Source: an uncultured Bacilli bacterium (GTDB lineage: Bacteria > Bacillota_I > Bacilli_A > RF39 > UBA660). Taken from it: a stretch of DNA of 64,000 bases. Positions 7,905 to 35,635 of the stretch are shown here, piece after piece. How positions within the stretch are numbered: position 1 is the stretch's first letter; each line of letters starts with the position of its first letter. Location: positions 5,803 through 69,802 of the forward strand of contig CANRNO010000001.1 in NCBI GenBank assembly GCA_947632065.1, given 5' to 3'. The position numbers and the translations under genes are program-made. Under the pieces are notes generated by a model. The model was not told the DNA's origin. It made no database searches and was given only the letters and a program-made list of their open reading frames with translations.

Positions 7905-8600
7905 ATGAAAGTTGGTGTTAAAGTGGAAGAGTTATTTAAAAAGTTAAATATAAAACCAAAAGACTTATCTTTATATGAAAAAGCCTTTTCTCATTCTTCG
8001 TATGCTAATGAACATAAAGCAAAACAAGATTATGAAAGATTAGAGTTTTTAGGAGATGCTGTACTTGATTTAGTAGTATCAGACTATCTTTATAAAAAAG
8101 AAAATCTTCAAGAAGGACAAATGACTAAAATAAGAGCAAGCTATGTATGTACGGATGCTAATGCCTTTTATGCCAAAGATTTAGGACTAGAGAAATATGT
8201 TAAAGTAGGTCATGGAGAAGAAAAAAAAGGAAAGACAATAGAAAAACATATCATTGCGGATACTTTTGAATCCCTAATGGGTGCAATATATTTAGACTTA
8301 GGATACCAAACAGTAAGAAGAGTAATTTTATCAATAGTACCTAAATATATAGAAGATAAAAATATAATGTTTTTTAAAGATTATAAATCAGTTCTTCAAG
8401 AATATACTCAAACAAGTAAAAAATCATTAAATTATGAAATTATTAAAGAAGAAGGACCAGCTCATGATAAGAGTTTCACAGTTGCTGTAATGATTGATGA
8501 AATAAACTATGGAGAAGGTAGTGCTAAAAGCAAAAAAAGTGCAGAACAAGAAGCTGCCCGTAAAGCCTTAGAAAAACTTGCTAAAAACAGCGAAATTTGA
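7905..8600 (+). CDS. rnc: Ribonuclease III
   Basis: ERLEFLGDAVLDLVVSDYLY RNase III signature plus a C-terminal dsRBD; start not certain (7905 vs the GTG at 7923). Confidence 0.9.
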   Translation: MKVGVKVEELFKKLNIKPKDLSLYEKAFSHSSYANEHKAKQDYERLEFLGDAVLDLVVSDYLYKKENLQEGQMTKIRASYVCTDANAFYAKDLGLEKYVKVGHGEEKKGKTIEKHIIADTFESLMGAIYLDLGYQTVRRVILSIVPKYIEDKNIMFFKDYKSVLQEYTQTSKKSLNYEIIKEEGPAHDKSFTVAVMIDEINYGEGSAKSKKSAEQEAARKALEKLAKNSEI

Positions 8601-8653
8601 TATAATTAACTAGTTGTATTTACGTCCCACAACAAAAAGAAAGGAGAAAAATA

Positions 8654-10309
8654 ATGAGTAAAATTAAAATTTTCAGTTTAGGAGGACTAAACGAAAATGG
8701 AAAAAATATGTACGTCGTAAATGTAGACGGAAATATATTTGTTTTTGATGCCGGTTTAAAATTTGATAATGATAAAAATTTAGGAATAGATTATATCTTA
8801 CCTAACTTTGATTATTTAATTAAAAATAAAAGAAAAATTAAAGGTATTTTCTTAACGCATGGACATGAAAGTAATATGGGAGCAACCAAAGATATAATAG
8901 AGGCAATACCAAGTATTAATGTTTATGCCACAAAACTTACTATGGAAATACTAAAAAGAGATTTAGAAGATAATGGAGTGAAAAAAGCTAATTTAAAACA
9001 AATTAGACCACATCACAAAATAGAATTTGGAAAAGATCTTGCTATATTCCCAGTAAGTATAACGCATTCTATTCCTGATGCAGTATGCTATGTATTGTAT
9101 ACAAAAGATGGTGCGATTGTTTATACAGGAGACTTTGTCTTTGATTCAACTATGATGGGACCATATAAAACAGATATTGGAAAACTAGCATATGTTGGAA
9201 AACAAGGAGTACTATGCCTACTTGCAGAATCAATGTATGCATCTCGAAAAGGACATACATCTCCACATAATAGAGTATCAAGTTTTATAAGAGAAGTACT
9301 TGTAAAACATGAAAATAGAATAATCGCCACAATTTTTCCGGCACACTTTTATAGAATTCAAGAAATATTTAATGAAGTATCCAAAACACATCGTAAGATT
9401 GTAGTTATGGGTAAAAACTTACAAGAGACAATTAATAAAGCAATTGAAGAAAAATACTTAACTGTAAATAAAAATAGAATAGGGGATTTATCTAATTTAA
9501 ATGATAAAGATGTAGTTGTTTTAATATCAGATGAAAAAGAAAGACCATTTGTAAATTTAGAAAAAATTGTAAAGGGATATGATAAATACATAAAATTAAA
9601 AGAAACAGATACTATCTTTATCACAGAGCCATCTTATGAAGGAGTAGAAAGAAGAATGACTATGCTTATGGATGAGATTGCTATTATGGGAATCGATGCA
9701 GTAAGTCTTTCAAATAAAAAACATCTACTTCATCATGCATCTAGTGAAGATTTAATGTTAATGATAAATTTAATGAATCCAAAATACTATTTTCCAGTAC
9801 AAGGAGAATACAAAGATCAATGTGCAAATGCTGAAGTTGCTGAATCTCTAGGAATTAAAAAAGAAAATATTCTACTAAAACAAAATGGAGATGTAGTAGA
9901 ATTTGTAGATGGAAAACTAAAAGAGACAACTGAGCATATTGAGACAGATGAAATATTAATAGATGGTAGAAATCAAGGAGATATTGGATATTTAGTTCTT
10001 AAAGATAGAGAAATGTTAGGAGAAAATGGTATCGTAATTGTTAGTTGTACATTAGATAAGAAAACTAAAAAAATAATTGGAGGACCAGAAATTCTAACAA
10101 GAGGTTTTGTCTACGTAAAAGAAAATCAAGATCTTTTAGAAGAAACTAAAGAAATATCTTTACAAACAATAGAAGATAATATTGTAGTAAACTCCAAAAG
10201 AGTAGACTATACAAAAATAAAAAATGATGTAAGAGAAAGATTAGGTAAATTCTTTTATCAAACAACTGAGTCAAAGCCTATGATTATTACAGTTATCCAA
10301 GAAGTATAA
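8654..10309 (+). CDS. rnj: Ribonuclease J (metallo-beta-lactamase/beta-CASP)
   Basis: 551 aa; HGHESNMG (the HxHxDH region) and beta-CASP motifs; strong AAAGGAG RBS. Confidence 0.9.
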   Translation: MSKIKIFSLGGLNENGKNMYVVNVDGNIFVFDAGLKFDNDKNLGIDYILPNFDYLIKNKRKIKGIFLTHGHESNMGATKDIIEAIPSINVYATKLTMEILKRDLEDNGVKKANLKQIRPHHKIEFGKDLAIFPVSITHSIPDAVCYVLYTKDGAIVYTGDFVFDSTMMGPYKTDIGKLAYVGKQGVLCLLAESMYASRKGHTSPHNRVSSFIREVLVKHENRIIATIFPAHFYRIQEIFNEVSKTHRKIVVMGKNLQETINKAIEEKYLTVNKNRIGDLSNLNDKDVVVLISDEKERPFVNLEKIVKGYDKYIKLKETDTIFITEPSYEGVERRMTMLMDEIAIMGIDAVSLSNKKHLLHHASSEDLMLMINLMNPKYYFPVQGEYKDQCANAEVAESLGIKKENILLKQNGDVVEFVDGKLKETTEHIETDEILIDGRNQGDIGYLVLKDREMLGENGIVIVSCTLDKKTKKIIGGPEILTRGFVYVKENQDLLEETKEISLQTIEDNIVVNSKRVDYTKIKNDVRERLGKFFYQTTESKPMIITVIQEV

Positions 10310-10310
10310 A

Positions 10311-10345
10311 AAGTTACTAATAAAAATAGTAACTTTTTTTTAGAA
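10311..10345 (+). terminator. rnj intrinsic terminator
   Basis: agttacta-ataaaaa-tagtaact stem followed by T8. Confidence 0.55.
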
Positions 10346-10448
10346 ATATGCAATAAAATATAATTTTTCCTATTATATAATAAATGGAGGCTCAATTTAG
10401 AGCGTTTGCCTTTTAAAGTCCATAGGGGGTTTAAAAGGAGGTGATACT

Positions 10449-10517
10449 ATGAGTAAGAAAGATTTATTAATTGGATTACTTATAGTAGTCATTATTTTGT
10501 TAATTGTCTATAATTAA
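10449..10517 (+). CDS. 22-aa hydrophobic peptide MSKKDLLIGLLIVVIILLIVYN (candidate type I toxin, copy 1)
   Basis: AAAGGAGG SD 6 nt upstream; charged N-terminus plus a single TM helix; stop immediately followed by a palindrome; a paralogous copy lies 317 bp downstream. Confidence 0.4.
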   Translation: MSKKDLLIGLLIVVIILLIVYN

Positions 10518-10525
10518 TAAAAAAA

Positions 10526-10544
10526 GCACTCAATTTGAGTGCTA
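10526..10544 (-). terminator. Minus-strand intrinsic terminator (agcactcaatttgagtgct preceded on + by A6, i.e. followed by T6 on the minus strand), copy 1
   Basis: Perfect 9/9 inverted repeat; the T-run is on the minus strand only, so it terminates a transcript converging on the small ORF. Confidence 0.45.
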
Positions 10545-10618
10545 ACCAAAAACTATTAGGTAAGCCTCAATACTTGGGCCTTCCTTTTTATTTTATGTAA
10601 TTATCATCTGTTATATTC

Positions 10619-10647
10619 ATATTATCATAAGTAAAATTAATTTTCAA
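10619..10647 (-). promoter_or_regulatory. Minus-strand sigma-A-like promoter TTGAAA-17-TGaTAATAT driving a ~90-nt antisense RNA toward the 10526-10544 terminator
   Basis: Reverse complement of 10619-10647 reads ttgaaa attaattttacttatga taatat with an extended TG; conserved in both cassette copies. Confidence 0.35.
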
Positions 10648-10765
10648 TCTATAAATTTTATAAAAAGTGAAAAAAGTTTTATTTTTCCTAGTATATAATA
10701 AGTGAAGGTTCAAATGAGCGTTTGCCTCTTAATAATCTAAAGGGGGTTAGGAGGAGGTGATTGCT

Positions 10766-10834
10766 ATGAGTAAAAAAGATTTATTAATTGAATTACTTAT
10801 AATAATCATTATTTTGTTAATTGTATTTAATTAA
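10766..10834 (+). CDS. 22-aa hydrophobic peptide MSKKDLLIELLIIIIILLIVFN (candidate type I toxin, copy 2)
   Basis: Same architecture as copy 1: GGAGGAGG SD, 22 codons, stop followed by the same palindrome at 10842-10860. Confidence 0.4.
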   Translation: MSKKDLLIELLIIIIILLIVFN

Positions 10835-10841
10835 TAAAAAA

Positions 10842-10860
10842 AGCACTCAATTTGAGTGCT
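10842..10860 (-). terminator. Minus-strand intrinsic terminator, copy 2
   Basis: Identical palindrome agcactcaatttgagtgct, with an A-run on the plus strand upstream. Confidence 0.45.
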
Positions 10861-11006
10861 AAACCAAACAACAAGGTAAGCCTCAATACTTGAGCCTTCC
10901 ATTTTTATTTTATGTAATCTTCTTCTGTTATATTAATACTATCATAACCATATTTAATTTTCAATCTGTAAATTTTAAAATTAGACTTTTTTTTATTAAT
11001 CTTACA

Positions 11007-11015
11007 TGATATAAT
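11007..11015 (+). promoter_or_regulatory. Extended -10 (TGaTATAAT) for the HerA-like gene
   Basis: tgatataat lies 16 nt upstream of the RBS and the GTG start at 11031. Confidence 0.4.
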
Positions 11016-11030
11016 TAAAAAGAATAGAGG

Positions 11031-12902
11031 GTGTTTCAAGTGCTAGGAAAGATTATAGAAATAGAAGATAATTACGTAACAGTACAACTAAGTATAGATA
11101 TTACAAAGCAACCAAACCTTGCTAATCTTCATGTTGTCTTTGAACATGGAGAAGATAAAATAGTAGGGGAAATTTTAAACGTCGATAAAACAAAAATGTT
11201 AATAGCCGTAGTAGGTGAATTAAAAGGAACTTGGTTTGCATCAGGAATTTCTGCTAAACCATCATTTGCATCCACTGTTAGAATTATCAAAATGGATGAA
11301 TTAGAATTGATATTAGGAAGTCAAAAGTTAGAAACAGGACAAACTTATTTTGGGCTTAGTAATGTTTATAAAAACTATAAAATTAATGTTAGTATAAATG
11401 ATTTCTTTTCAAATCACTTTGCTATACTTGGAAACAGTGGTGCTGGTAAATCATTTACAGTATCAGGAATTTTTCAAAGACTTTTCTCATCTCCAACAGC
11501 ATCCCCAACAAATGCTAATATATTTTTCTTTGATGCTTATGGAGAATATACAAGAGCATTCTCTAATATGACAAATATAAATCCAGCACTTCATTATAAA
11601 GTTTATACAACTAATACAGAAATGGCAACTGATGAAATATTAAAGATACCTGCTTGGTTACTAGATGTAGATGATCTAGCACTTCTTTTAGATGTTACCA
11701 CAGCCAATCAATTACCAATAATTGAAAAAGCCCTAAAACTTGTACCAATAATTGCTAGTAACACAGAAGGTGTAGTAAAATATAAAAATGATATAATCGC
11801 AAGAGCCTTAGAAGATATATTACTTAGTGGAAATGATTCTACTAAAATACGTGACCAAGTTACTGCGGTACTTACAAAATTTAATACTAAAGAATTAAAT
11901 CTAGAAAGTCAAATTGCTCAACCTGGATATGTAAGAAGTCTAAAACAATGTCTTTATATAGATAAAACAGGTAAGATGCAAGAAATGGAACTTGTAGTAA
12001 ACTTCATTAAAAGTTTTATAGATGATTCCCTTGATATAGAATCAATTCCTAAAGGAAATGTTTATTATAATTTAAAACACTTAGAAGAAGCAATGGAATT
12101 TGCTCTAATATCTGAGGGTATATTAAAAAGTGAAAAAGTATATGACTTCGCTAATGTTTTAAGTGTAAGACTTCATTCAATGGTAAAGTCATCTGAGTCA
12201 CAATATTTTGATTATAACCATTATGTAACAAGAGGAGAATACATAAGAGAATTACTTACAGATGTTAAAACAGGTGGTAAATGTCAAATTGTAAACTTCA
12301 ATATCAGTTATATAGATGATAGACTTGCAAAAGCAATAACAAAAATAATTTCTAAATTGTTATTCCAAACAGCAGTAGAAAACCCAAATCGTGGAAGTGT
12401 TCCTTTTCATATTATAATAGAAGAAGCACACCGTTATGTTATGAAAGATACAGATATTGAAATTTTAGGATACAATATATTTGATCGTATTACAAAAGAA
12501 GGACGTAAATATGGAGTATTACTCGGACTTATTACTCAACGTCCTAGTGAACTATCAGATACAGCAATCTCTCAATGTTCAAACTTTGTAATACTAAGAA
12601 TTTTACATCCAAAAGATTTGGACTATATCAAAAACATGGTACCTAATGTAACAAGTGAAATGATTATTCAACTTAAAACATTAAAACCAGGTAATTGTAT
12701 TGCTTTTGGAAGCGCATTTAAAATACCAACTGCGATGTATATGGAAAAACCAGATCCAGAACCACTAAGTAACAACGTCGATGTTAAAAATATCTGGTAT
12801 AAAGCACCAGTTACCGCACCAACTGCCCAAACTGCTCAACCAGCATCTCAAGCAGCAGCTAATTTTGGTATTAACGCACCGCAACAAACTGTACAAAATT
12901 AA
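11031..12902 (+). CDS. HerA/FtsK-superfamily ATPase (DUF87, HAS-barrel plus RecA-like fold) with a low-complexity Ala/Gln/Thr/Pro tail
   Basis: Walker A GNSGAGKS, Walker B IIIEEAHRYV, and LGLITQRPSELSDTAISQCSNFVILR (HerA arginine-finger region); GTG start with an RBS. Confidence 0.7.
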   Translation: MFQVLGKIIEIEDNYVTVQLSIDITKQPNLANLHVVFEHGEDKIVGEILNVDKTKMLIAVVGELKGTWFASGISAKPSFASTVRIIKMDELELILGSQKLETGQTYFGLSNVYKNYKINVSINDFFSNHFAILGNSGAGKSFTVSGIFQRLFSSPTASPTNANIFFFDAYGEYTRAFSNMTNINPALHYKVYTTNTEMATDEILKIPAWLLDVDDLALLLDVTTANQLPIIEKALKLVPIIASNTEGVVKYKNDIIARALEDILLSGNDSTKIRDQVTAVLTKFNTKELNLESQIAQPGYVRSLKQCLYIDKTGKMQEMELVVNFIKSFIDDSLDIESIPKGNVYYNLKHLEEAMEFALISEGILKSEKVYDFANVLSVRLHSMVKSSESQYFDYNHYVTRGEYIRELLTDVKTGGKCQIVNFNISYIDDRLAKAITKIISKLLFQTAVENPNRGSVPFHIIIEEAHRYVMKDTDIEILGYNIFDRITKEGRKYGVLLGLITQRPSELSDTAISQCSNFVILRILHPKDLDYIKNMVPNVTSEMIIQLKTLKPGNCIAFGSAFKIPTAMYMEKPDPEPLSNNVDVKNIWYKAPVTAPTAQTAQPASQAAANFGINAPQQTVQN

Positions 12903-12976
12903 AAGAAGTACTTGTTGCTAAAAAGAATTTGTGCTAAAATGTAATGTAGTGATAATAAAAATGGAGGAATTAAGAT

Positions 12977-13411
12977 ATGGCATTTGATAAATTTAAAGGA
13001 ATATTAGGTGGAAATGAAGACGAAGAAATGGATGTGGCAGGAACAGATGATGAGTTCTATTCAACTTCTCGTGAAGAATTCCACGAAAACAACGGTATGG
13101 CTGAAAGTAAAATGATGTTACTAGAGCCACGAGCTTATTCTGAAAGTCAACAAATCGCAGATTATTTAAAAAATAGAAGTGCAGTAGTAGTAAATCTAAA
13201 AAGAGTAACTCCAGATCAAGGAAAAAGAATAGTAGATTTCCTAAGTGGAACACTATATGCAATTGGAGGAGATTTACAAAAGTTAGGTGGAGGAATATTT
13301 CTATGTACACCAAACAATGTAGATGTTGAGGGGAAAATTAGTGATGATGCTACTACAAAACCTGCAAAAAGTAAAAAGACTAAAGATGACGATGATGAAT
13401 TCGATTGGTAG
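12977..13411 (+). CDS. sepF: Cell division protein SepF
   Basis: C-terminal SepF domain: [43 protein letters not shown]. Confidence 0.8.
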
Positions 13412-13452
13412 AAGTATTATAAAAATTTAAACTCATATCTCGAGGTGATATT

Positions 13453-13887
13453 ATGGAGAAGTTTGGTTATGAAACTAATGGCTATAATAAAGAACAAGTT
13501 AATCAGTTTGTAAATGATGTGATAACACAAACAGAAAATATTGTAAAAAAATGTAAAGACCAACAAAAACAAATAGAAAAATTAAAAAATCAACTTAGTC
13601 ATTATCAAACAGTAGAAACAGAACTTAAAAAAACTGTTATACAAGCTGAAAAAGCTAGTGAAAAAATGAAAGAAATGGCTAAAGAAGAAGCAATCATGAT
13701 TATAAATGATGCTAAAAATAACGCTTCGAGAATAGTAAATGAAGCTTTATTAAAAGCTGATAAAATAGAAACTAAAAGAGATGTATTAGAAAAGAATCTA
13801 CAAATATTCAAAAGAAAATTAAAACTAGTTGTGGAACAGCAGATGGCTGTTGTTGAAGAAATAGATACTTTAGAAATTATAGAGTAA
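13453..13887 (+). CDS. DivIVA-domain coiled-coil protein (DivIVA/GpsB family)
   Basis: N-terminal GYxxxQVNxFVNDV DivIVA motif followed by a long coiled coil. Confidence 0.75.
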   Translation: MEKFGYETNGYNKEQVNQFVNDVITQTENIVKKCKDQQKQIEKLKNQLSHYQTVETELKKTVIQAEKASEKMKEMAKEEAIMIINDAKNNASRIVNEALLKADKIETKRDVLEKNLQIFKRKLKLVVEQQMAVVEEIDTLEIIE

Positions 13888-19783: not shown

Positions 19784-19868
19784 TGGTGCGAGTAACAGGA
19801 GTTGAACCTGCAAGGGTTACCCCGCTAGATCCTAAGTCTAGTGCGTCTGCCAATTCCGCCATACTCGC
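19784..19868 (-). tRNA. tRNA-Leu (anticodon TAG), long variable arm
   Basis: The reverse complement reads GCGAGTATGGCGGAATTGGCAGACGC...CTTAGGA...GGTTCAACTCC...CGCACCA; the cloverleaf is foldable by eye and CCA is encoded. Confidence 0.85.
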
Positions 19869-19873
19869 ATATG

Positions 19874-19950
19874 TGGTGGACCCTGATGGACTCGAACCAT
19901 CGACCACTCGGTTATGAGCCGAGAGCTCTAACCAACTGAGCTAAGGGTCC
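19874..19950 (-). tRNA. tRNA with CAT anticodon: Met, or more likely the lysidine-modified Ile2
   Basis: Reverse complement GGACCCTTAGCTCAGTTGGTTAGAGC...CTCATAA...GGTTCGAGTCC...GGTCCACCA; it closely resembles the Bacillus tRNA-Ile(CAU) scaffold. Confidence 0.85.
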
Positions 19951-23625: not shown

Positions 23626-24246
23626 ATGGCAAAAGCAAAAAAAGAAAAAAAGAGTAGTAATTTGTTAGTTATTTTATTAATATTAATTTTACTATTATTA
23701 ATTGTTTTACCACCAACTTTTAGAAGTTTATTTCCAAGAGAAGATGAAGAGGAAAAAATAGAAGAAACACCTAAATTAAATAATTTAACTAATTTATCTT
23801 GTCGTAAAAAAACAACAGATAATTATAATGTAACAGTAAATAACATATATCAAAATAATGATATTTCTAAAGTAACTATTAGTTATTCTCAAGTAGTAAA
23901 TGATCAAAATACAACAGAGACGCCAGATGCTAATGGAACAAGTGATACTACTACAAATACTCAGACACAGACAAATGATACAACTAGTCAAACTCAAACA
24001 AATACTGAACAACCAACAACCAATTCTCCTGTTATAGATAATGTCTTAGGAGAAATGGATGTATTAAGAACAATTGAGGCTATAACAAAAAATGAAACTG
24101 ATACAAATCATCAATTTTCAATAGTTATAAAAAATTTTGGTAATTTACCAATTCCAAACGAAATAACATTTAGATTACAAAGTTTAACTGTTCAAAAAAA
24201 ATTCTATGAGAATTTAGGATATACTTGTACAATAGTTAATACTTAA
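23626..24246 (+). CDS. Membrane-anchored Thr/Gln/Asn-rich protein of unknown function
   Basis: N-terminal TM LLVILLILILLLLIVL; low-complexity TNTQTQTNDTTSQTQTNTEQPTT region. Confidence 0.4.
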   Translation: MAKAKKEKKSSNLLVILLILILLLLIVLPPTFRSLFPREDEEEKIEETPKLNNLTNLSCRKKTTDNYNVTVNNIYQNNDISKVTISYSQVVNDQNTTETPDANGTSDTTTNTQTQTNDTTSQTQTNTEQPTTNSPVIDNVLGEMDVLRTIEAITKNETDTNHQFSIVIKNFGNLPIPNEITFRLQSLTVQKKFYENLGYTCTIVNT

Positions 24247-25058
24247 AATATAAATAATATAAATAAAGCAATGAAGAAAAGAATATTCTTTTCTTTTTTT
24301 ATTCTTTCTAAAAGATAAGATAGACTAACAGTACCTTCAAATAAAAATACTAAGGAATTTAAATAATCAAGTCTATTACTGAAACTAAAATAAGGAAGTT
24401 CTCTTAAAAGCCTAGTAGTAGGGTATAAATAAACATTCATCATCTTATCTCCTAAAACCCCACCAACAACAATAAGTTCAATAATTATAGTAAAAAAAGA
24501 AACAGTAAAATATCCTAATATACTTCTAGTATCAATAGAGTCTTCTTTAAAACCATAAAAAGCAAAAATAATAAGAAAAGGTAAAAAATTAGTAAATGAC
24601 ACATTAACAGAAGTATCTGATACAAATTCTACTAAATTATAAGGATTGATATAAAAACAAGAATTAATAATAACTATAAAGAAAACAACTATAAATATAA
24701 AAAATAATATTTCACTAATAGATTTTATTGAATCAAAACCTTTATATGTAACTATACTAATAACTATTAAAAGAGGTATTTTAATTATATATTTATTTAT
24801 ATTAGAAAAATAATTAGCACCTATAAAATTAATCATGTTATTAGTAATTAAGACTCCTAAAATTATATACACCAAACTAAGAATTATAGGAAACTTTCTA
24901 TTAGTTTTACTAATCAAAAACAAAAAAATAACTACAAATAAAAACAAAGATACCATCCACCATACTTTAGCATTCTCTACTAAATTAAAGATTGCTCTTG
25001 TCAAAAAGAATACAAGAGCAAAAAAAGAAATATCTGCTTTTTTCATAATTACCTCCAA
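24243..25058 (-). CDS. Spore germination GerAB-like membrane protein (APC-fold; shortened to 271 aa)
   Basis: Polytopic membrane protein at the 3' end of a gerA-type operon; B subunits are usually ~360 aa, so this one is truncated. Confidence 0.45.
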   Translation of the reverse strand: MEVIMKKADISFFALVFFLTRAIFNLVENAKVWWMVSLFLFVVIFLFLISKTNRKFPIILSLVYIILGVLITNNMINFIGANYFSNINKYIIKIPLLIVISIVTYKGFDSIKSISEILFFIFIVVFFIVIINSCFYINPYNLVEFVSDTSVNVSFTNFLPFLIIFAFYGFKEDSIDTRSILGYFTVSFFTIIIELIVVGGVLGDKMMNVYLYPTTRLLRELPYFSFSNRLDYLNSLVFLFEGTVSLSYLLERIKKEKNILFFIALFILFIF

Positions 25059-25615
25059 TCTATAGTTTTATATTTTTTAATATCAAAATTTTCTTTATCA
25101 TTATAAATTATTGGAATAAAAACTTTTTCCTTATTAATATAAGATTTTTTTAAATCATAAAAAGTAATAGTATTTTTACTATGATTTAGAAAAGTTTGTA
25201 AAGAAGAACTACTAAGTATTTTAGAATTATTATCATTTATAAATACTATATAAAAGTCTTCTCTTAATTCTTTAAAAGTATCTAATTTTTTTATTAGACT
25301 TTCCATATCTTTTTTTGAAACAGAATAATCTATAATTATATTTTCTAAATGTGATAAATATATATCTTTAGGAAATCTATTAAATTTTTTAAAACAATTA
25401 TCAATACTATTACAATTTATAATAGATTTACTATATTTTTTACTTATTCCATTATCAGAATTACTAGCATTAACTTCATTTAAAATAAATCTAAATTCAC
25501 TTTTACTTTTACCAATATAAATATTATTAATAATCATTAAATTATCAAGTTCCTTATATCCTAAACATCCAGTTAAGAAAAATATAAGACAAGAAATAAT
25601 TATTAGTTTTTTCAT
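25049..25615 (-). CDS. Spore germination GerAC-like lipoprotein (shortened to 188 aa)
   Basis: Lipobox FLTGCLG; sits between the A and B subunit genes; overlaps both by 4-10 nt. Confidence 0.45.
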   Translation of the reverse strand: MKKLIIISCLIFFLTGCLGYKELDNLMIINNIYIGKSKSEFRFILNEVNASNSDNGISKKYSKSIINCNSIDNCFKKFNRFPKDIYLSHLENIIIDYSVSKKDMESLIKKLDTFKELREDFYIVFINDNNSKILSSSSLQTFLNHSKNTITFYDLKKSYINKEKVFIPIIYNDKENFDIKKYKTIDWR

Positions 25616-27024
25616 TTATAACCACCTCTATGTATATTTTTAGTAAGAAGAGGATTCCTTAATTTATTTTTTTCTGTATTAGTCTTTATTAAAGCATCTT
25701 TTTGTTCATTAAAATTAAATGGGGAAAAAGGAAATAAATAAGGTTTATTAAATGTTTTTTGTGAAGTAAGTATTGAGATAATAACAATAAAACTTAAATA
25801 TATTCCATATATTCCAAGTAGAGCGGATGATAAAATTAGTAAAAATCTTAAATTTCTAATTGCATTCACTATTTCTATTTCATTAAATACAAGACCACTA
25901 ATAGCAGACAAAGCAATCACTATAATCATCATAGGAGACATTATTCCAGCACTCACCAAAGCATCTCCTAAAATAAGTCCTCCAAGTATTGATATTGCAC
26001 TACCAGTAGTAGATGACATCCTAATATCAGATTCTTTAAGTATTTCAAAAGAAATAATCATTATAATAGCTTCTAAAAATATAGGAAAAGGAGTATTAAT
26101 TTGACTAGATTTTAAATTAAGAAGCAAATTAACTGGTATAGCATCCTGATTATGAGTAATAAGAGCAATATAATAAGCAGGTAAAAATATAGAAATACAA
26201 AAAGCAATAAATCTTAAAATTCTAATAAAACTAGCATTTATAGGCTTTTGATAATAATCATCAGTAGTATGAAAAAAATCTATAAAAAACTGTGGTAAAA
26301 TTATTACTTGTGAACTCATATCAACAACTAAACAAACCTTTCCCTCTAAAAGAGCCATAGATGCTTTATCAGGTCTTTCTGTTGTAATAATAGTAGGAAA
26401 AAGACTAGAATTATTTTCTAAATTTCCTTTTAAATAAGTCGAATCAATAATACCATCAATATTAATCGTATTTAGTCGATTTTTAACATCTTTTACTAAA
26501 TTTTTATCTACTATATTATCCATATATAAAATTCCAATTTTAGTAAAAGTTAAAGTACCAATCTCTAAAGAATCTACTTTTAAGTATTCAGACTTTATCC
26601 TACGTCTTATAAGTCCTAAATTAGTATTATAATTTTCATTAAAACTATCTTTAGGTCCTCCAATAGTAACTTCCCCCTCCGCAGTATTAATCCCACGAGA
26701 AAGATCTGCTTTTAATTCAATCGCATAAATCAAATCATTACTACAAATAATAACTACAAAACCATAATTAACATAGTAAATAATCTTATCACTGTTAATA
26801 AGACTTATATTAGTATCTGGTAATATATCTTCTAGATGTTTAAAATCTTTTTTCTTTTTTATATTAATAAGACGTCTTAATACAAAGTCATTAATCATCT
26901 CTGAATCAGTTAAAACTTCATTAAATATTAAGGAAATATCTTTATTTAAAATTTTTAAGTCTTTAAAAATATAATCTTTACTAGATCCAATTCTACTCTT
27001 TATAGAGTCAACTAATTTTTTCAT
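25612..27024 (-). CDS. Spore germination protein GerAA/GerKA family (germinant receptor A subunit)
   Basis: LGLIRRRIKSE, the FPIFLEAIIMIISFEILKESDIRM region and 4-5 C-terminal TM helices: GerA family (PF03323). Confidence 0.8.
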   Translation of the reverse strand: MKKLVDSIKSRIGSSKDYIFKDLKILNKDISLIFNEVLTDSEMINDFVLRRLINIKKKKDFKHLEDILPDTNISLINSDKIIYYVNYGFVVIICSNDLIYAIELKADLSRGINTAEGEVTIGGPKDSFNENYNTNLGLIRRRIKSEYLKVDSLEIGTLTFTKIGILYMDNIVDKNLVKDVKNRLNTINIDGIIDSTYLKGNLENNSSLFPTIITTERPDKASMALLEGKVCLVVDMSSQVIILPQFFIDFFHTTDDYYQKPINASFIRILRFIAFCISIFLPAYYIALITHNQDAIPVNLLLNLKSSQINTPFPIFLEAIIMIISFEILKESDIRMSSTTGSAISILGGLILGDALVSAGIMSPMMIIVIALSAISGLVFNEIEIVNAIRNLRFLLILSSALLGIYGIYLSFIVIISILTSQKTFNKPYLFPFSPFNFNEQKDALIKTNTEKNKLRNPLLTKNIHRGGYK

Positions 27025-27091: not shown

Positions 27092-28225
27092 ATGGAAGTA
27101 GTTATAGAAAAATTAGATCACTTTGGTCGTGGAATTACTTATATTAATGATAAAATTTGTTTTGTAGATTTTGCTTTACCAGAAGAAATAGTAGATATAA
27201 AAATCACAAAAGAGAAGAAAAAATATTTGGAAGGAAAAATTATAAAATTTATAAAAACAAGTGATAAAAGAGTTGAAAGTAAATGTCCATATTTTAAAGA
27301 ATGTGGAGGATGTGATTTAAGACATTTAATAAAGGAAGAACAAGAAATTTTTAAAACAGAAAAAGTAAAAGAAATATTATCTAAATTCGCAAATCTCTCA
27401 AGTAATAAAGTAAAGGATATAGTAAGTGTAAATAAAGATAATTATCGTAACAAAGTAGTATTCCATGTAAAGGATAAAAAGTTAGGTTTTTATAAAAGAA
27501 AAAGTCATGATTTAATAGAAATAGATTATTGTCTTAACTTAGATGATAGAATAAATAAGTTAATACCTGATTTAAAAAAGAAAGTAAAAAAAGATAATAC
27601 TAAAAGTATTATGGTAAGAGTATCTAACGATAATGATGATGTTATAATCAATAGAGATGATAAAGAAATAATATCAAGTATTAAAGATAAAAAATATTTA
27701 ATTACTAAAGATGACTTCTTCCAAGTAAATAAATTTTTAACAGAACACTTATATGATGAAGTAGTAAAAAATATAAAAAGACTTAACTCTAAAAAAGTAT
27801 TAGATTTATATTGTGGTACTGGAACAATTGGTATATATGTATCAGATTATGTAGATAGTGTAGTAGGAGTAGAGAAAGTATCATCTAGTATAAAGTCTGC
27901 GAATAAAAATAAAGAGTTAAACAAAATAGATAATATAAAGTTTATTGAAGGTTCATCAGAAGAAGTTTATCCTAAGTTAAAAGAAGAATTTGATACTGTA
28001 ATATGTGATCCTCCAAGAAGTGGATTAGAAAAAAGAGTAATAGATACTCTAAAAGAAATGACACCTAAAAATATAATTTATATCTCATGTGACCCAGTAA
28101 CTCTCGCAAGAGATTTAAAAATATTAAAAGAAATATATGACATAGAAGAAATCACACCATTTGATATGTTTGAAAATACTTATCATGTTGAATGTATATG
28201 TTTATTAAAATTAAAGAATAAGTAA
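27092..28225 (+). CDS. TRAM-domain 23S rRNA (uracil-C5)-methyltransferase (RlmD/RumA family)
   Basis: N-terminal TRAM domain, a 4-Cys cluster (CPYFKECGGCDLRH), SAM-MTase motifs (DLYCGTG, CDPPRSG) and a catalytic Cys near the C-terminus. Confidence 0.8.
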   Translation: MEVVIEKLDHFGRGITYINDKICFVDFALPEEIVDIKITKEKKKYLEGKIIKFIKTSDKRVESKCPYFKECGGCDLRHLIKEEQEIFKTEKVKEILSKFANLSSNKVKDIVSVNKDNYRNKVVFHVKDKKLGFYKRKSHDLIEIDYCLNLDDRINKLIPDLKKKVKKDNTKSIMVRVSNDNDDVIINRDDKEIISSIKDKKYLITKDDFFQVNKFLTEHLYDEVVKNIKRLNSKKVLDLYCGTGTIGIYVSDYVDSVVGVEKVSSSIKSANKNKELNKIDNIKFIEGSSEEVYPKLKEEFDTVICDPPRSGLEKRVIDTLKEMTPKNIIYISCDPVTLARDLKILKEIYDIEEITPFDMFENTYHVECICLLKLKNK

Positions 28226-28274
28226 TAAATTTGCTTATTTTTTTATTTTCCATTAACAAAAGAGGAATATGAAA

Positions 28275-28303
28275 ACTTGAAGTTCCACTTTGGAATTTCA
28301 AGT
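28275..28303. other. 13-bp stem / 3-nt loop hairpin (acttgaagttcca ctt tggaatttcaagt)
   Basis: Near-perfect inverted repeat with one G-U wobble; no flanking U-run on either strand. Confidence 0.4.
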
Positions 28304-28515
28304 ATAAAAAAATAATGGTGGTGTAAGAAAACTTCCATATACTTTCACAAAACTATGAGAAAATATATATCAAATAATAAGATAAAAAAAGTAGTTTTTT
28401 CGCTTTAAGTGCTATTAAAACTTTTTAAATCTCTATAATATAAGTGAGGGGAAAATATAGACAAAATTTAGCATTAAAAATAAATAAACACATATAATAA
28501 GAGTTAGGAAAGAAA

Positions 28516-28557
28516 TTGACTTTCCTAGTTTAATGTGTTATATTATTAACACATTAA
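28516..28557 (+). promoter_or_regulatory. Promoter TTGACT-17-TGtTATATT overlapped by a perfect 11-bp inverted repeat (ttaatgtgtta-N6-taacacattaa) operator
   Basis: -35 at 28516-28521 and -10 at 28539-28544; the palindrome at 28530-28557 spans the -10 and the transcription start. Confidence 0.5.
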
Positions 28558-28575
28558 TTGATGATTAACTTGGTT

Positions 28576-28674
28576 GCATTGAGAAGAATTTTATTCGAGG
28601 AACATATTAGTCAACCTAAATAATCACATCATGAATAGCATTGAGAAGAATTTTATTCGAGAAACATATTAGTC
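28576..28674 (+). repeat. Two 37-nt direct repeats (gcattgagaagaattttattcgaGgaacatattagtc, one mismatch) separated by 25 nt, in the leader of the MazF-like gene
   Basis: Copies at 28576-28612 and 28638-28674; the reading frame differs between copies, so no peptide is conserved. Confidence 0.8.
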
Positions 28675-28685
28675 TATTCGTTGTT

Positions 28686-28721
28686 AGGAAACTCTATTAT
28701 AGGGTTTCCTTTTATTGTTTT
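28686..28721 (+). terminator. Intrinsic terminator / attenuator between the repeats and the toxin start
   Basis: aggaaac-tctattatagg-gtttcct hairpin followed by tttattgtttt; GGAGG RBS and the ATG follow immediately. Confidence 0.5.
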
Positions 28722-28731
28722 GGAGGTAATT

Positions 28732-29106
28732 ATGAAAAATGGAGAAATATTTTATATAGATTTTAAAGGAAATAGAGGATCCGAAATCAATAATATTCAC
28801 TTAGGAATTATATTTACTATTCCCAAAATTAATAATATGGTATTTTGTATACCACTTACTAGTCCGAAACAAAAACATTTTAAAAATATAAGTTCTTTTA
28901 ATAAACGTAATTATAAAGAATTAAAATATCAAAATTTAGTATATATAGATATATCCGATTCCGTTGCGCTACTAGATCAAATGAGAACTATATCTACTCA
29001 AAGATTACTAAGTTCGTATAATATTATTCTAGATAATAAGAATATCAACTTAATAAAAACAAAAGTTAATAAATATATTACAAATATTATGAAAAAAGAA
29101 AAATAG
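28732..29106 (+). CDS. MazF/PemK-family endoribonuclease toxin; no adjacent protein antitoxin
   Basis: GEIFYIDFKGNRGSEINNIHLGIIFT vs MazF GDLIWVDFDPTKGSEQAGHRPAVVLS, then ...CIPLTS...VALLDQMRTIS (MazF: VALADQVKSI); GGAGG RBS before the ATG at 28732 (the ORF-track start at 28681 lies inside the terminator). Confidence 0.75.
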   Translation: MKNGEIFYIDFKGNRGSEINNIHLGIIFTIPKINNMVFCIPLTSPKQKHFKNISSFNKRNYKELKYQNLVYIDISDSVALLDQMRTISTQRLLSSYNIILDNKNINLIKTKVNKYITNIMKKEK

Positions 29107-29168
29107 AAAAACAGAAAAAAATATACTCTTTCAATTTATTCTTATATATTTTATAATAATAAAGAAAG

Positions 29169-31514: not shown

Positions 31515-34500
31515 ATGAACTGGACAGAAGAACAACTTGCCGCAATAAAAGAAAGTGGTAAAAACATAATTGTATCTGCTGGTGCTGGAAGTGGGAAAAC
31601 TGCTGTTTTATCAGAACGTGTTATAGAAAAAATAAAACAAGGAATACATATTAATGAACTACTTATTATGACTTTCACAAATGCCGCCGCCGCAGAAATG
31701 AAAGAAAGGATAAGAAAAAAATTATTAAAAGAAAAAAACTTCAAAGAAGAAATAGAATTACTTGATTCTGCCTACATCACAACATTTGATAGTTTTGCTT
31801 TATCAATAGTAAAAAAATATCATGACATACTAAACATTACAAATAAAGTAAAAATATGTGATGAGGCTTTAATTACTATTAAGAAAAAAGAACTTTTAGA
31901 TGAAATATTTGATGAATATTATGAAAAAGAAGATGAAAGTTTTCTAAATTTAATAAAAGACTTTTGCTTAAAAGATGATAAAGAATTAAAAAAATACATT
32001 ATATCAATTTATAATTCTATTTCACTAAAATATGATCCAATAGAATTCTTAGAAAAAGAATCTATAAATAATTTTAAAGAAGAAAATTTAAATAAAGTTG
32101 TAACTGATTATAATAATTTATTAAAAGAAAATATAAAAGAAATAGAAAATATATTAAGAAAATTATCCCTTACATTTTCATCAGATTATATGATGAAGTT
32201 ATATGCTCCTCTAGACAAACTTCTTAATGCCAATAATTATGAAGAAATAAAAAATTCTCTTGATATAAAATTACCACCAGTACCAAAAAACACAGAACTT
32301 GAAATTAAAGATTTGAAAGGAAATATAAAAACAATCACAGATGATTTAAAAAAAATGTGTATTTATTCATCAACTGAAGAAATAAAAGAAGATATCTTAT
32401 CTACTAAAAATAATACAATAGTTATTACAAATATTTTAAAAGAATTATTTAAAAGACTAGATGTTTATAAAAAAGAAGAAAGTTTTTATAACTTTAATGA
32501 TATATTTCATATGGCTATAAAAATAGTAAAAGATAATAAAGAAATACGCGATGAAGTTAGAAATAGTTTTAAAGAAATATTAGTAGATGAATACCAAGAC
32601 ACTAGTGATTTACAAGAATATTTTATATCACTAATTGAAGATAATAATGTTTATATGGTAGGAGATGTAAAACAATCTATATATCGTTTTAGAAATGCTA
32701 ATCCTTATATATTTAAAAATAAATATGATAACTATTCTAAAGATAATGGTGGTATAAAAATAGATCTTAATAAAAACTTTAGAAGTAGAAGAGAAGTATT
32801 ATCTAATATAAATTTAATATTTGATAAAATAATGTCTGATAATATTGGAGGAGCATCTTATAAACAGACTCACAGGATGCAATTTGGAAATAAAACTTAT
32901 GAAGAAGATGGACTTACAAAACAAAATTATAATTTAAAAATAAAAACATATGAAAAAGAAAAAAACATCTCAAACAGTATAAAAGAATCATTTATCATCG
33001 CAACAGATATAAAAGAAAAAATAAAAAATAAATATAAAATTTATGATGGAAATTTAAGAGAAATAAAATACTCAGATTTTTCAATATTACTTGATAGAAG
33101 TAAAGACTTTGATTTATATAAAAAAGTATTAGATTATTTTGGTATTCCAAGTGAAATAATAAAAAATGAAGAATTAACAAAAGAAGATGATATCCTAGTA
33201 TTAAAAAATTTATTTAAATTGATAATATTAATACATAATAAAACTTATAATCAAGAATTTAAATATTCATTTTTATCAGTAGGACGTAGTTTCTTATTTG
33301 ATTTAGATGATGATATATTATTTTCTTATTTCGTAAATAACAATTTTGAAGAAAGTGATATATTTATTAAATGTCAAGAAATAAGTAAAGACTTAGATAT
33401 TAAAACTCCAAGTATGGTTTTAGAAGAAATAATGAATACTTTCAATTATGAAGAAAAACTAATTACTTTAATAAATATTAAAAATTTAAGAACACGTATT
33501 GAATATATAATGACATTCTTAAAAGACTTCTCATATCTTGGAAACACTCCAGAAGATTTTATAGAATATTTAGATACAGTATTCACATCATCTCTACGTA
33601 TAGAGTTTCAAACTAAAAATACAAACTCTAATGCTGTAAAAATCATGACTATTCATACATCAAAAGGACTAGAATTTCCTATTTGTTATTTCGCAGGATT
33701 TACAAACTCATTTAACTTAAGAGATTTAACAGATAAAATACTTTATAATAATACCTATGGTATAGTACTTCCTAAAGTAGATGAAGTTATAAAAGCAACT
33801 ATCTTAAATGAATTATTAAAATATAATACTAAAAAAGAAGAAATAAGTGAAAAAATTAGACTTTTATATGTTGCGCTAACACGTGCAAAAGAAGAAATGA
33901 TTATAGTTTGTCCTACTTTTGAAAAAGATATTGAATTATCAGAATATACTCAAATGAAATATAAAAGTTTTTATAATATTATAGAAAGTATTAGATATGA
34001 ATTAGAAGACTATATTGAATTTATTGATATAGAAGTAAATAAAGACTTTCTAACAACTAGTTTTAAATCAGATTTAAAACTAAAAGAAGTAGAAGATTTT
34101 ATCGTAGAAGAATTAGACATTCCAACAGAAGAGGAAGAAGAAAAAAGATTTTCTAAAACAACTTTAGAAATCCAAACTAAAGAAGAAAAAGAAAAACTAC
34201 AAACAGGAACTAACTTTCACCAAATACTAGAAATGATAGATTTTAAAAATCCTAATTTAGAAATTCTAGATGAAAAAGAAAAGAACATGATAACCTCATT
34301 CTTAGAAAATGATATTATAAAAAATAATCTTGATGGAAATATATATCATGAATATGAATTTCTATTTAAAAAAGAAAATATTAATTATCATGGTATAATA
34401 GATTTAATGATAGAAAAAAGTGATAAAATAATTATTATAGATTATAAATTAAAAAATATAGATGATGAAAAATATAAAGACCAATTAAATGGTTATAAAG

Positions 34501-34580: not shown

Positions 34581-34589
34581 GAGAGTATT

Positions 34590-35591: not shown

Positions 35592-35635
35592 TATTTTTAT
35601 AAATTATTATATAATATAAAAATAGGGGAGGAAGT

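What the first reader, a model, noticed from the sequence alone, without database searches (positions are those of the whole stretch)
10352..10975. Tandem pair of small-hydrophobic-peptide cassettes with a convergent antisense promoter and terminator: candidate duplicated type I toxin-antitoxin locus
Two ~317-bp paralogous units each have a promoter, a ~70-nt leader, a strong SD (AAAGGAGG / GGAGGAGG), a 22-codon ORF (MSKKDLLIGLLIVVIILLIVYN / MSKKDLLIELLIIIIILLIVFN; charged N-terminus plus one TM helix) and a stop codon. Six or seven nt after each stop lies a 19-nt palindrome whose U-run is on the minus strand, so it terminates a transcript converging on the ORF. About 75 bp further downstream, on the minus strand, sits a conserved TTGAAA-17-TGaTAATAT promoter, and the ~110 bp between are conserved in both copies. 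That would give a ~90-nt antisense RNA overlapping the 3' end of the peptide mRNA, as in txpA/RatA, bsrG/SR4 and fst/RNAII. In each leader a CCUUUU/CCUCUU element could pair with the SD, the sequestration typical of type I toxin mRNAs.
Basis: partly seen in the sequence, partly recalled or inferred. Interest (0 to 1): 0.65.

Follow-up and report, generated by a model that had tools for sequence, protein, structure and literature searches.

The report
Tandem toxin–antisense RNA cassettes, new family
Two adjacent copies of a small gene for a 22-residue membrane peptide, each faced by its own antisense RNA gene, belong to a large, previously unannotated family of type I toxin-antitoxin-like modules in uncultured gut Bacilli.

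Summary
Window 10338-10977 holds two 317-bp tandem units, about 85% identical. Each has a sense promoter, a ~65-nt leader, a Shine-Dalgarno (SD) site, a 22-codon hydrophobic ORF, a minus-strand terminator beside the stop codon, and a near-consensus minus-strand promoter ~76 bp further on.

I found more than 50 related cassettes in MAGs and metagenomes of gut Bacilli. Across 37-41 non-redundant members:
- The ORF evolves like a coding region (substitutions by codon position 151/39/202).
- The antisense promoter is kept at a fixed distance in 37 of 41.
- The antisense terminator stems covary.
- A 25-bp helix pairing the 5' and 3' ends of the sense RNA shows strong covariation (85% paired against 72% in shuffles, 0 of 500 shuffles as high).

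The cassettes vary in copy number (2 against 3 in a sister MAG) and are patchy across relatives. They are not linked to the HerA-like gene, and some survive as toxin-dead remnants.

Neither the peptides nor the RNAs match any Pfam, NCBIfam or Rfam family. The layout resembles txpA/RatA and bsrG/SR4, combined with a hok- or Fst-like clamp joining the two mRNA ends. Peptide toxicity and RNA expression remain untested. Verdict: a real, new family of a known kind.

The parts
10352..10381 (+). Sense (toxin) promoter of unit 1: -10 TATAAT at 10376-10381, weak -35
   Evidence: Read from the sequence. In family members with enough upstream DNA, a -10 box lies 4-9 nt before the GGA of the 5' arm and the -35 is poor.
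10386..10596 (+). Toxin mRNA 1, ~211 nt. Features: 5' arm A 10386-10395; arm B 10400-10407; anti-SD 10409-10417; SD GGAGG 10437-10441; 3' arms B' 10562-10568 and A' 10575-10584; U-tract 10585-10596.
   Evidence: Fold z = -6.45, state-by-state folds, covariation of A:A' and B:B' across the family. Both transcript ends are inferred, not measured.
10449..10517 (+). ORF 1: 22-aa peptide MSKKDLLIGLLIVVIILLIVYN, with a basic N-terminus and one hydrophobic helix
   Evidence: Substitutions by codon position across the family are 151/39/202. No Pfam or NCBIfam family.
10518..10612 (-). Predicted antisense (antitoxin) RNA 1, ~95 nt, complementary to the last ~79 nt of mRNA 1 (10518-10596) and ending at the stop codon
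   Evidence: Bounded by a conserved promoter and terminator. Fold. Expression not tested.
10518..10543 (-). Intrinsic terminator of antisense RNA 1: hairpin 10543-10525 followed by T7 at 10524-10518
   Evidence: In the family, 33 of 41 members have a hairpin plus T-run with unrelated stem sequences. G-U pairs favour the minus strand, 23 against 8.
10619..10647 (-). Antisense promoter 1: TTGAAA - 17 nt - TG-a-TAATAT
   Evidence: In 37 of 41 family members, TTGAmA-17-TGnTAtTAT lies 20-23 nt from the CAUAAAAU motif.
10670..10699 (+). Sense promoter of unit 2: -10 TATAAT at 10694-10699
10704..10913 (+). Toxin mRNA 2. Features: 5' arm 10704-10713; SD 10753-10757; 3' arm A' 10890-10900; U-tract 10902-10913.
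   Evidence: Fold z = -7.19. The three differences from unit 1 inside helix A:A' all keep pairing.
10766..10834 (+). ORF 2: 22-aa peptide MSKKDLLIELLIIIIILLIVFN
10835..10929 (-). Predicted antisense RNA 2, ~95 nt, with terminator hairpin 10860-10842 and T7 at 10841-10835
10936..10964 (-). Antisense promoter 2: TTGAAA - 17 nt - TG-a-TAGTAT

Best explanation
Each 317-bp unit is a chromosomal type I toxin-antitoxin-like module. The locus is a tandem duplicate, and a triplicate in the sister MAG.

Shown by sequence comparison:
1. The + strand makes a ~210-nt mRNA for a 22-aa membrane peptide.
2. The extreme 5' end of that mRNA (GGAGGCUCAA plus a second arm) pairs with the 3' UTR just before a conserved U-tract, closing the whole RNA in a clamp of about 20-25 bp.
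3. A separate minus-strand gene has a near-consensus extended -10 promoter and its own terminator abutting the stop codon. It specifies a ~95-nt RNA perfectly complementary to the mRNA 3' UTR, including the 3' arms of the clamp.

Predicted by folding:
4. The SD and AUG are buried, by an anti-SD hairpin and by pairing with codons 12-17.

Inferred by analogy to txpA/RatA, bsrG/SR4, Fst RNA I and hok:
5. The clamp and the buried SD keep the mRNA stable but poorly translated.
6. The abundant antisense RNA docks through its A-rich, largely unpaired 5' end on the single-stranded U-rich tail of the mRNA. It then invades the clamp and forms a ~79-bp duplex.
7. RNase III cuts that duplex, and the freed 5' end becomes accessible to RNase J. 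Both RNases are encoded in the window.
8. If antisense supply falls, the longer-lived mRNA is translated and the peptide damages the membrane.
For: Local anatomy.

That gave 55 cassettes with an intact ORF, 41 of them non-redundant, and 43 distinct peptides of 22-38 aa. All have 2-3 Lys/Arg in the first 8 residues followed by an Ile/Leu-rich stretch.

- Coding constraint: substitutions at codon positions 1/2/3 are 151/39/202.
- 5'-3' clamp: RNAalifold finds helix B:B' unaided, with 10 of 12 pairs showing compensatory changes. In an anchored gapless analysis, helix A:A' is 87% paired against 71% with shuffled partners (maximum 77% in 1000) and 40-54% when slid. The formal count on 25 pairs gives 85.1% paired against 71.6 +/- 0.9, 19 pairs with double changes, 129 double-changed cells against 46 +/- 6, and covariation 0.447 against 0.231. 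All of these are 0/500 except the pair count (5/500); slid controls give 35-52%.
- Antisense promoter: mean score 11.0 against 8.5 for the same DNA on the other strand, TG extension in 37 of 41, 17-nt spacer in 37 of 41, fixed position.
- Antisense terminator: 33 of 41 have a hairpin plus at least 5 T, with unrelated stem sequences and minus-strand G-U excess, 23 against 8.
- TA-like population behaviour: 2 copies here and in four ENA contigs of the same species, 3 copies in L005. Absent from L006 and 75 other HerA-like loci. About 11 remnants keep the antisense half but have lost the start codon, SD and N-terminus. L126 and L133 have shortened or frameshifted ORFs.
- The toxin promoter is weaker than the antisense promoter.
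- Literature basis for the analogies: PMC6562991, PMC7472228, PMC8594479.
Against: - No expression data exist. Both transcripts and all their ends are inferred.
- Toxicity of a 22-aa peptide is assumed from composition only. The window peptides are the shortest in the family and end right after the hydrophobic stretch.
- Thermodynamic modelling shows no change in SD or AUG accessibility when the antisense-covered region is blocked. A bsrG/SR4-type translational effect is therefore not supported, and how translation is ever activated is unknown.
- The local + strand terminator hairpin in the two window copies is weak and was not called by the scan.
- The cassettes lie in core-genome intergenic regions rather than on recognisable mobile elements, and there were no plasmid or phage matches.
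- The composite alignment used was built from anchored blocks that I chose, which may lean towards the structure.
Confidence: 0.78

Rival explanations
1. It is a non-toxic small membrane protein gene, for example a regulator or accessory subunit of a membrane complex, whose expression is tuned by a cis-antisense RNA. The architecture would be the same but there would be no addiction or killing function.
For: Toxicity is untested. The cassettes sit among housekeeping genes: rnj and herA-like/sepF/divIVA here, spoIIGA-sigE/ftsZ in L200, and der/greA in L207. No mobile-element association was found.
Against: Tandem amplification with varying copy number, patchy presence among close relatives, unrelated insertion sites, and remnants that selectively lost the peptide half while keeping the antisense gene are typical of selfish TA modules and not of a conserved cellular subunit. 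The heavy, covarying translational and end-locking structure fits an mRNA whose product must be kept off.
Confidence: 0.12
2. It is a precursor of a secreted hydrophobic peptide (bacteriocin, pheromone or lipopeptide-like signal), with antisense control.
For: The N-terminus is basic and followed by a hydrophobic stretch, which resembles a signal peptide. One member gives a weak hit to the NprX pheromone family, E = 0.045, far below the cutoff.
Against: There is no mature region after the hydrophobic segment, since the peptides end within or just after it. No processing, export or immunity genes are linked, and the neighbours differ at every site. No family reaches any curated threshold.
Confidence: 0.04
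3. It is a non-coding structured repeat, such as an intergenic repeat element or a pair of sRNA genes, and the ORF is fortuitous.
For: The region is a tandem repeat in an AT-rich intergenic space, folds very strongly, and short ORFs are common in such DNA.
Against: Across 43 distinct peptides the SD, start and stop are kept, length changes are in frame, and second codon positions are four- to five-fold depleted in substitutions.
Confidence: 0.03
4. It is a leader, attenuator or promoter region of the downstream HerA-like gene.
For: It lies directly upstream of and co-oriented with the HerA-like gene.
Against: Of 80 HerA-like orthologue loci, only L005 has the cassette at this site. L006 (90% identical HerA-like protein) has a ~110-nt spacer and a different upstream gene. 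The same cassette family occurs next to unrelated genes. The HerA-like gene has its own TG-a-TATAAT at 11007-11015. An outward-facing antisense promoter and a U-tract lie between the cassette and the gene.
Confidence: 0.01

Closest known systems
Bacillus subtilis 3'-overlapping type I systems: txpA/RatA, bsrG/SR4, bsrE/SR5, yonT/SR6
   Same: The toxin mRNA and antisense RNA are convergent and pair at their 3' ends. The antisense has its own promoter and terminator. The toxin is a small hydrophobic peptide. The likely action is duplex formation followed by RNase III cleavage (PMC6562991). As in bsrG, the antisense targets one strand of a long helix within the mRNA.
   Different: There is no sequence or profile similarity of peptide or RNA. 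The overlap is ~79 nt, not 100-140 bp, and stops at the stop codon in the window copies. The peptides are 22-38 aa with a basic N-terminus. Folding predicts no antisense-induced change at the SD. The cassettes are not on prophages.
Fst/RNAII (par of pAD1) and SprA1/SprA1as
   Same: Promoters are convergent. An intramolecular stem sequesters the SD, and a helix sequesters the extreme 5' end of the toxin mRNA, as the 5'-SL and 5'-UH do in RNA I (PMC7472228). The peptide N-terminus is charged.
   Different: There is no PXXXG motif and no charged C-terminal tail; Pro is 0.2% of residues. There is no shared bidirectional terminator. There are no DRa/DRb-type repeats giving antisense complementarity to the translation initiation region. 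There are no Pfam, NCBIfam or Rfam matches.
hok/Sok and AapA1/IsoA1 (Gram-negative)
   Same: A 5'-3' long-distance interaction locks the full-length toxin mRNA in an inert fold, and the SD is sequestered (PMC8594479, PMC6733600).
   Different: In those systems the antisense binds the 5' region of a 3'-processed mRNA and lies inside the mRNA. Here the antisense is complementary to the 3' arm of the lock itself. There is no mok-like leader ORF, and the phylum is different.
Rfam AaHKsRNA20 (RF02898), best sub-threshold RNA match
   Same: A generic shape of small hairpins plus a terminator. Scores are 29.3 and 22.5 bits.
   Different: The scores are well below the gathering score of 43 bits, the family is an Aggregatibacter sRNA, and the similarity rests on the A/U runs flanking a terminator. 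I treat it as chance.

Membership tests
Type I toxin-antitoxin systems (general class) | Small (<60 aa) hydrophobic, membrane-spanning peptide encoded by a short mRNA | tested here: met
   22-aa ORFs with an SD. 43 family peptides of 22-38 aa, 50% Ile+Leu. Codon-position pattern 151/39/202.
Type I toxin-antitoxin systems (general class) | Separate antisense RNA gene complementary to the toxin mRNA | tested here: met
   At sequence level only. A conserved minus-strand promoter and terminator bracket ~95 nt that overlap the mRNA 3' UTR. Transcription was not observed.
Type I toxin-antitoxin systems (general class) | Peptide is toxic when expressed, and the antisense RNA prevents this | not testable with these tools
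   Needs expression experiments. The organism is an uncultured MAG.
Type I toxin-antitoxin systems (general class) | Toxin mRNA folded to block translation (SD sequestration, 5'-3' interaction) | tested here: met
   folds; covariation of the 5'-3' helices. A compensatory change in the anti-SD stem separates the two copies.
TxpA/RatA, BsrG/SR4, BsrE/SR5, YonT/SR6 | Toxin peptide homologous to TxpA/BsrG/BsrE/YonT | tested here: not met
   None of 25 family peptides reaches any Pfam or NCBIfam cutoff; best E-values are 0.011-0.2 to unrelated membrane proteins.
TxpA/RatA, BsrG/SR4, BsrE/SR5, YonT/SR6 | Antitoxin RNA matches the family's covariance model | tested here: not met
   No Rfam family at or near its gathering score in the window or in 15 family loci.
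TxpA/RatA, BsrG/SR4, BsrE/SR5, YonT/SR6 | Convergent genes whose RNAs overlap at their 3' ends, with the overlap reaching into the ORF (100-140 bp) | tested here: inconclusive
   The 3'-3' overlap is present, but it is ~79 nt and reaches only the stop codon in the window. In the L051/L209 subgroup the terminator hairpin covers the last codons.
Fst/RNAII (par) superfamily | PXXXG motif in the transmembrane helix and a charged C-terminal tail | tested here: not met
   Pro is 0.2% and Gly 0.6% of residues. No PXXXG in the A3 alignment. Most peptides end in the hydrophobic stretch or in KK.
Fst/RNAII (par) superfamily | Shared bidirectional terminator | tested here: not met
   The hairpin after the stop codon has a T-run on the minus strand only. 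The sense U-tract lies ~50 nt further on.
Fst/RNAII (par) superfamily | Direct repeats (DRa/DRb) that make the antisense complementary to the toxin's translation initiation region | tested here: not met
   The longest repeat between the initiation region and the antisense-covered DNA is 6.6 nt on average, against 6.2 in shuffles.
hok/Sok, AapA1/IsoA1 | Antisense binds the 5' UTR or initiation region of the mRNA | tested here: not met
   The antisense gene lies entirely 3' of the ORF.

The most novel reading that the evidence does not exclude
This is a previously undescribed and very widespread type I toxin-antitoxin family of uncultured, host-associated, low-GC Bacilli from rabbit, ruminant, mouse and human gut. 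Its antitoxin works as a mimic of the mRNA's own 5' end. It docks on an invariant single-stranded U-rich tail (UUUUUUAUUUUAUG) and, by toehold-mediated strand displacement, opens a 25-bp end-to-end clamp. That exposes both mRNA ends to RNase J and RNase III. On this reading the antitoxin controls mRNA end protection rather than ribosome access.
Probability: 0.3. Interest if true: 0.6.

Novelty: new member of a known kind. Interest (0 to 1): 0.5.

Why it matters
[quoted passage not shown] The peptides fall below gene-caller limits and the RNAs are not conserved between families. Known examples come from Proteobacteria, Firmicutes and Tenericutes, almost all from cultured species (PMC12390103, PMC8594479).

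None of the ten family peptides I looked up occurs in a collection of about 15 billion predicted proteins, and none of six family peptide N-termini appears in the searchable literature. The family is therefore abundant in gut metagenomes and invisible to standard annotation.

Its RNA architecture is unusually well constrained, with two promoters, two terminators, an SD trap and a covarying 25-bp end clamp within 317 bp. That makes it a ready-made comparative data set for how antisense RNAs unlock toxin mRNAs, and a compact candidate part for RNA-based control or plasmid-retention devices in low-GC Gram-positives.

Tried and rejected
- blastn (distant mode) of a window unit and of a consensus-like member (L103) against plasmid and phage collections gave no match, or a 46-bit chance hit in phage Tsamsa.
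- The motif scan of viral contigs returned 15 hits. All were chance: non-T bases in the gap and no cassette upstream.
- The search for homologous proteins refuses queries under 40 aa. Exact look-up of 10 peptides found none.
- The supplementary tables of Fozo et al. 2010 are not held, so I could not check whether their predicted 'novel' ORFs include relatives.
- RNAduplex between the whole antisense and the non-overlapped mRNA gave long AU-rich pseudo-duplexes barely better than shuffles (-33 against -29 kcal/mol). I discarded it as uninformative and replaced it with the direct-repeat test.
- Modelling SD accessibility in full-length, antisense-blocked, nascent and 3'-truncated states showed the SD mostly paired in all states, with no consistent shift. 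I therefore do not claim translational control by the antisense.
- MAFFT on full-length RNAs misaligned helix A:A' because of a paired one-base insertion in some members (GGAAA/TTTCC). RNAalifold then saw only B:B'. Anchored blocks were used instead.
- Minus-strand ORFs 10588-10713 and 10905-11039 (41 and 44 aa, TTG starts) were rejected. They start upstream of the antisense promoter, have no SD, and owe their similarity to the DNA repeat.
- RNase J-HerA synteny could not serve as a comparator. It exists only in this species and in L005.
Full report
**Observation.** The region between the RNase J gene (8654-10309, followed by its own terminator at about 10308-10345) and a HerA-like DUF87 ATPase gene (11031-12902) contains two head-to-tail units with 316-318 bp spacing. 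The units are 84.7% identical over 323 bp.

Each unit carries the following, on the strand shown:
- A -10 box, TATAAT (10376-10381; 10694-10699), on the + strand.
- A ~65-nt leader, then an SD (GGAGG at 10437 and 10753).
- A 22-codon ORF (10449-10517; 10766-10834).
- Seven nucleotides after the stop codon, the palindrome AGCACTCAATTTGAGTGCT. It is preceded by a run of seven A on the + strand, so it reads as a terminator only on the minus strand (2 terminators found, 0.2 expected).
- About 76 bp further on, a minus-strand promoter, TTGAAA-17-TG-n-TAATAT (or TAGTAT).

The palindrome and the 26-nt core GGTAAGCCTCAATACTTGRGCCTTCC occur nowhere else in the 64 kb. A profile search of the whole window finds only these two copies.

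**The sense RNA.** Folded from the predicted start to the U-tract, both + strand RNAs are far more stable than shuffles (-68.9 and -66.0 kcal/mol; z = -6.45 and -7.19).
- The extreme 5' end (GGAGGCUCAA, 10386-10395) pairs with UUGGGCCUUC (10575-10584), directly followed by UUUUUAUUUUAU.
- A second helix (10400-10407 with 10562-10568) stacks inside the first.
- The SD is half-buried in CCUUUUAAA/UUUAAAAGG.
- GGUGAUACUAUGAGUAAG pairs with codons 12-17, so the AUG is predicted paired with probability close to 1.
- All three differences between the two copies inside the 5'-3' helix keep pairing. The anti-SD stem carries a U-A to C-G double change.

**The organism.** The RNase J protein is found unchanged on four ENA metagenome contigs with the same 2-unit spacer. 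The HerA-like protein retrieves 80 loci from GTDB species representatives. All are uncultured 'Bacilli / Mollicutes / Erysipelotrichaceae'-labelled MAGs from rabbit, ruminant, mouse, chicken and human gut. The nearest (97%) is rabbit MAG Lapin-030 bin52.

**Comparators at and away from the site.**
- L005 (97%) carries three units at the same site.
- L006 (90%) has a different upstream gene and a ~110-nt spacer with no cassette.
- Only 5 of the 80 HerA-like loci have a cassette within about 5 kb, and the other four are at other positions or orientations. This removes the 'leader of the HerA-like gene' reading.
- The gene has its own TG-a-TATAAT at 11007-11015.

**A large family.** Divergent members in L018, L051 and L057 revealed an almost invariant motif, TTCC-T5-7-ATTTTATG-YAAG.
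Most are complete cassettes.
- Viral contigs gave only chance hits.
- I extracted 83 unique motif sites, of which 55 have an intact SD-preceded hydrophobic ORF, 41 of them non-redundant.
- The 43 distinct peptides are 22-38 aa. They start M-x-(K/R)2-3, often followed by D, and continue with a 13-22-residue Ile/Leu/Phe/Val stretch. Some end in KK.

**Is the ORF real?** Among 36 pairs of equal-length ORFs at 75-99% identity, substitutions fall 151/39/202 on codon positions 1/2/3. The second position, which decides hydrophobicity, is protected. Start, SD and stop are kept, and length differences are in frame. This is the signature of a translated hydrophobic peptide.

**Is the antisense gene real?**
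- In 37 of 41 non-redundant members the best minus-strand promoter is TTGA(A/C)A - 17 nt - TG-n-TA(T/A)(T/A)AT. Its -10 box ends 20-23 nt from the CAUAAAAU motif. The mean score is 11.0, against 8.5 for the same DNA read on the other strand.
- In 33 of 41 members a hairpin next to the stop codon is followed by at least 5 T on the minus strand. The stems are unrelated in sequence: AGCACTCA, TCCACCTAA, GACACTTATTC, CGCTTTAATCTATA, TAGTACCGACT and others.
- Wobble pairs in this hairpin are G-U on the minus strand 23 times and on the plus strand 8 times. Selection therefore acts on the minus-strand RNA.
- The sense promoter has a good -10 but a poor -35. A weak toxin promoter and a strong antitoxin promoter are the usual arrangement.

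**Is the 5'-3' clamp real?**
- RNAalifold on a plain MAFFT alignment of 40 full-length RNAs recovers the inner helix (B:B') unaided: 12 pairs, 10 with compensatory changes.
- The outer helix (A:A') was misaligned because some members carry a matched one-base insertion on both arms (GGAAA/UUUCC). Anchored at GGA and at UUCC, it is 87% paired over 13 positions. Shuffled partners give 71% (maximum 77% in 1000), and sliding by 1-3 nt gives 40-54%.
- The formal count on 25 pairs in 37 sequences is shown below.

| Measure | Observed | Shuffled | Shuffles as high |
|---|---|---|---|
| Cells paired | 85.1% | 71.6 +/- 0.9% | 0/500 |
| Pairs with changes on both sides | 19 | not reported | 5/500 |
| Double-changed cells | 129 | 46 +/- 6 | 0/500 |
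| Covariation score | 0.447 | 0.231 | 0/500 |

Slid controls gave 35-52% paired. The arms range from GGAGGCUCAA/UUGGGCCUUC through GGAACAUUUAAU/AUUAAGUGUUCC to GGAAGUAACCGUU/AACGAUUGCUUCC.

The functional sense RNA therefore runs from the GGA that lies 4-9 nt after the -10 box to the U-tract.

**Population behaviour.**
- Copy number differs between sister genomes (2 against 3).
- Tandem pairs recur in L165, L207, L210, L136, L159, L177, L192 and L211.
- Insertion sites are unrelated and lie among core genes: ftsZ/spoIIGA-sigE in L200, der/greA in L207, and next to tRNA genes in L018, L122 and L129.
- About 11 members keep the antisense half but lack the start codon, SD and N-terminus. For example, the L104/L120/L134 allele can be compared with the intact L201 allele.
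- L126 and L133 are frameshifted or shortened.
- Losing the toxin first while retaining the antitoxin is what is expected for an addiction-type module.

**Mechanism.** The shown and inferred steps are separated in the Best explanation section. In short, the mRNA is stable, clamped and poorly translatable. The ~95-nt antisense is complementary to the last ~79 nt of the mRNA, including both 3' arms of the clamp.

The invariant U-rich 3' tail of the mRNA and the A-rich 5' end of the antisense are both predicted largely unpaired. They are the obvious first contact. Duplex formation should create an RNase III substrate and release the 5' end. RNase III and RNase J genes are present at 7905-10309.

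Modelling gives no sign that antisense binding changes SD accessibility. I therefore favour a degradation-type antitoxin, as RatA is for txpA (PMC6562991), over a translational one.

**Comparison with known systems.**
- No Rfam family reaches threshold in the window or in 15 family loci. Rfam holds 13 type I antitoxin families according to PMC8594479.
- None of 25 peptides reaches any Pfam or NCBIfam cutoff.
- The gene layout is that of the Gram-positive 3'-overlap group (PMC8594479, PMC6562991).
- The 5'-end-sequestering helix and the SD stem recall Fst RNA I (PMC7472228). However, the PXXXG motif, the bidirectional terminator and the DRa/DRb repeats are all absent.
- The end-to-end lock recalls hok and AapA1, but there the antisense binds the 5' side.
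- The peptides are absent from a 15-billion-protein collection and from the searchable literature.

**Verdict.** This is a genuine, duplicated type I toxin-antitoxin-like locus and the founding sighting of a large, unannotated family. It is a new member of a known kind. Confidence in the architecture is high. Confidence in toxicity and antitoxin action is moderate, because both rest on analogy.

Noticed in passing
L005:3991-4947: The sister MAG (HerA-like protein 97% identical) has three tandem units at the same site where the window has two. The peptides are MSKKDLLIGLLIVVIILLIVYN, MSKKDLLIELLIIIIILLIIYN and MSKKDLLIGLLIVVIILLIIYN.
   Followed up: yes
L057:4690-4960 (-); L104, L120, L124, L134, L191, L194; L106, L116, L140, L144, L166, L169, L170: These family members retain the antisense promoter, both hairpins and the conserved motif. 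They have lost the start codon, SD and N-terminal codons of the peptide ORF, so they look like toxin-dead remnants or orphan antitoxins. The L104-type allele shares its 3' half with the intact L201 cassette.
   Followed up: partly
L018:1871-1943, L129:5434-5599, L122:1127-1209: Several cassettes lie directly beside tRNA genes, and one sits beside a tRNA cluster. This may reflect insertion hotspots.
   Followed up: no
L200:4442-6721: Two cassettes about 2.1 kb apart flank a spoIIGA-sigE pair downstream of ftsA-ftsZ. Some hosts of the family are therefore spore-forming Firmicutes, and the cassettes bracket a sporulation operon.
   Followed up: partly
window 7905-10309: RNase III and RNase J, the two nucleases most often implicated in decay of type I toxin/antitoxin RNAs in Firmicutes, are encoded immediately upstream of the cassettes. 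This synteny exists only in this species and L005, so it is probably coincidence.
   Followed up: partly
window 11031-13887: A HerA-like DUF87 ATPase (623 aa, with a Q/A/P-rich C-terminal tail) is followed by SepF and DivIVA genes. The same HerA-like-SepF-DivIVA gene order is seen in the four ENA contigs of the same species; gene order in the 80 relatives was not examined. This hints at a cell-division role for the ATPase.
   Followed up: no
window 28000-36000; 24000-26000; 60000-62000: G+C is very low (20-22%) between 28 and 36 kb, against 25-29% elsewhere. GC skew changes sign at about 24-26 kb and 60-62 kb.
   Followed up: no
window 19787-19950 (-): Two adjacent tRNA genes are the only Rfam matches at gathering score in the window.
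   Followed up: no
L051:3172-3213 (-): A borderline Rfam hit to ssNA-helicase RNA (RF03070; 42.1 bits against a gathering score of 41.5) lies about 700 nt from a cassette.
   Followed up: no
family alignment A4, rows with GGAAA...TTTCC: Seven members carry a matched one-base insertion on both arms of the outer 5'-3' helix. This compensatory indel misled MAFFT.
   Followed up: partly
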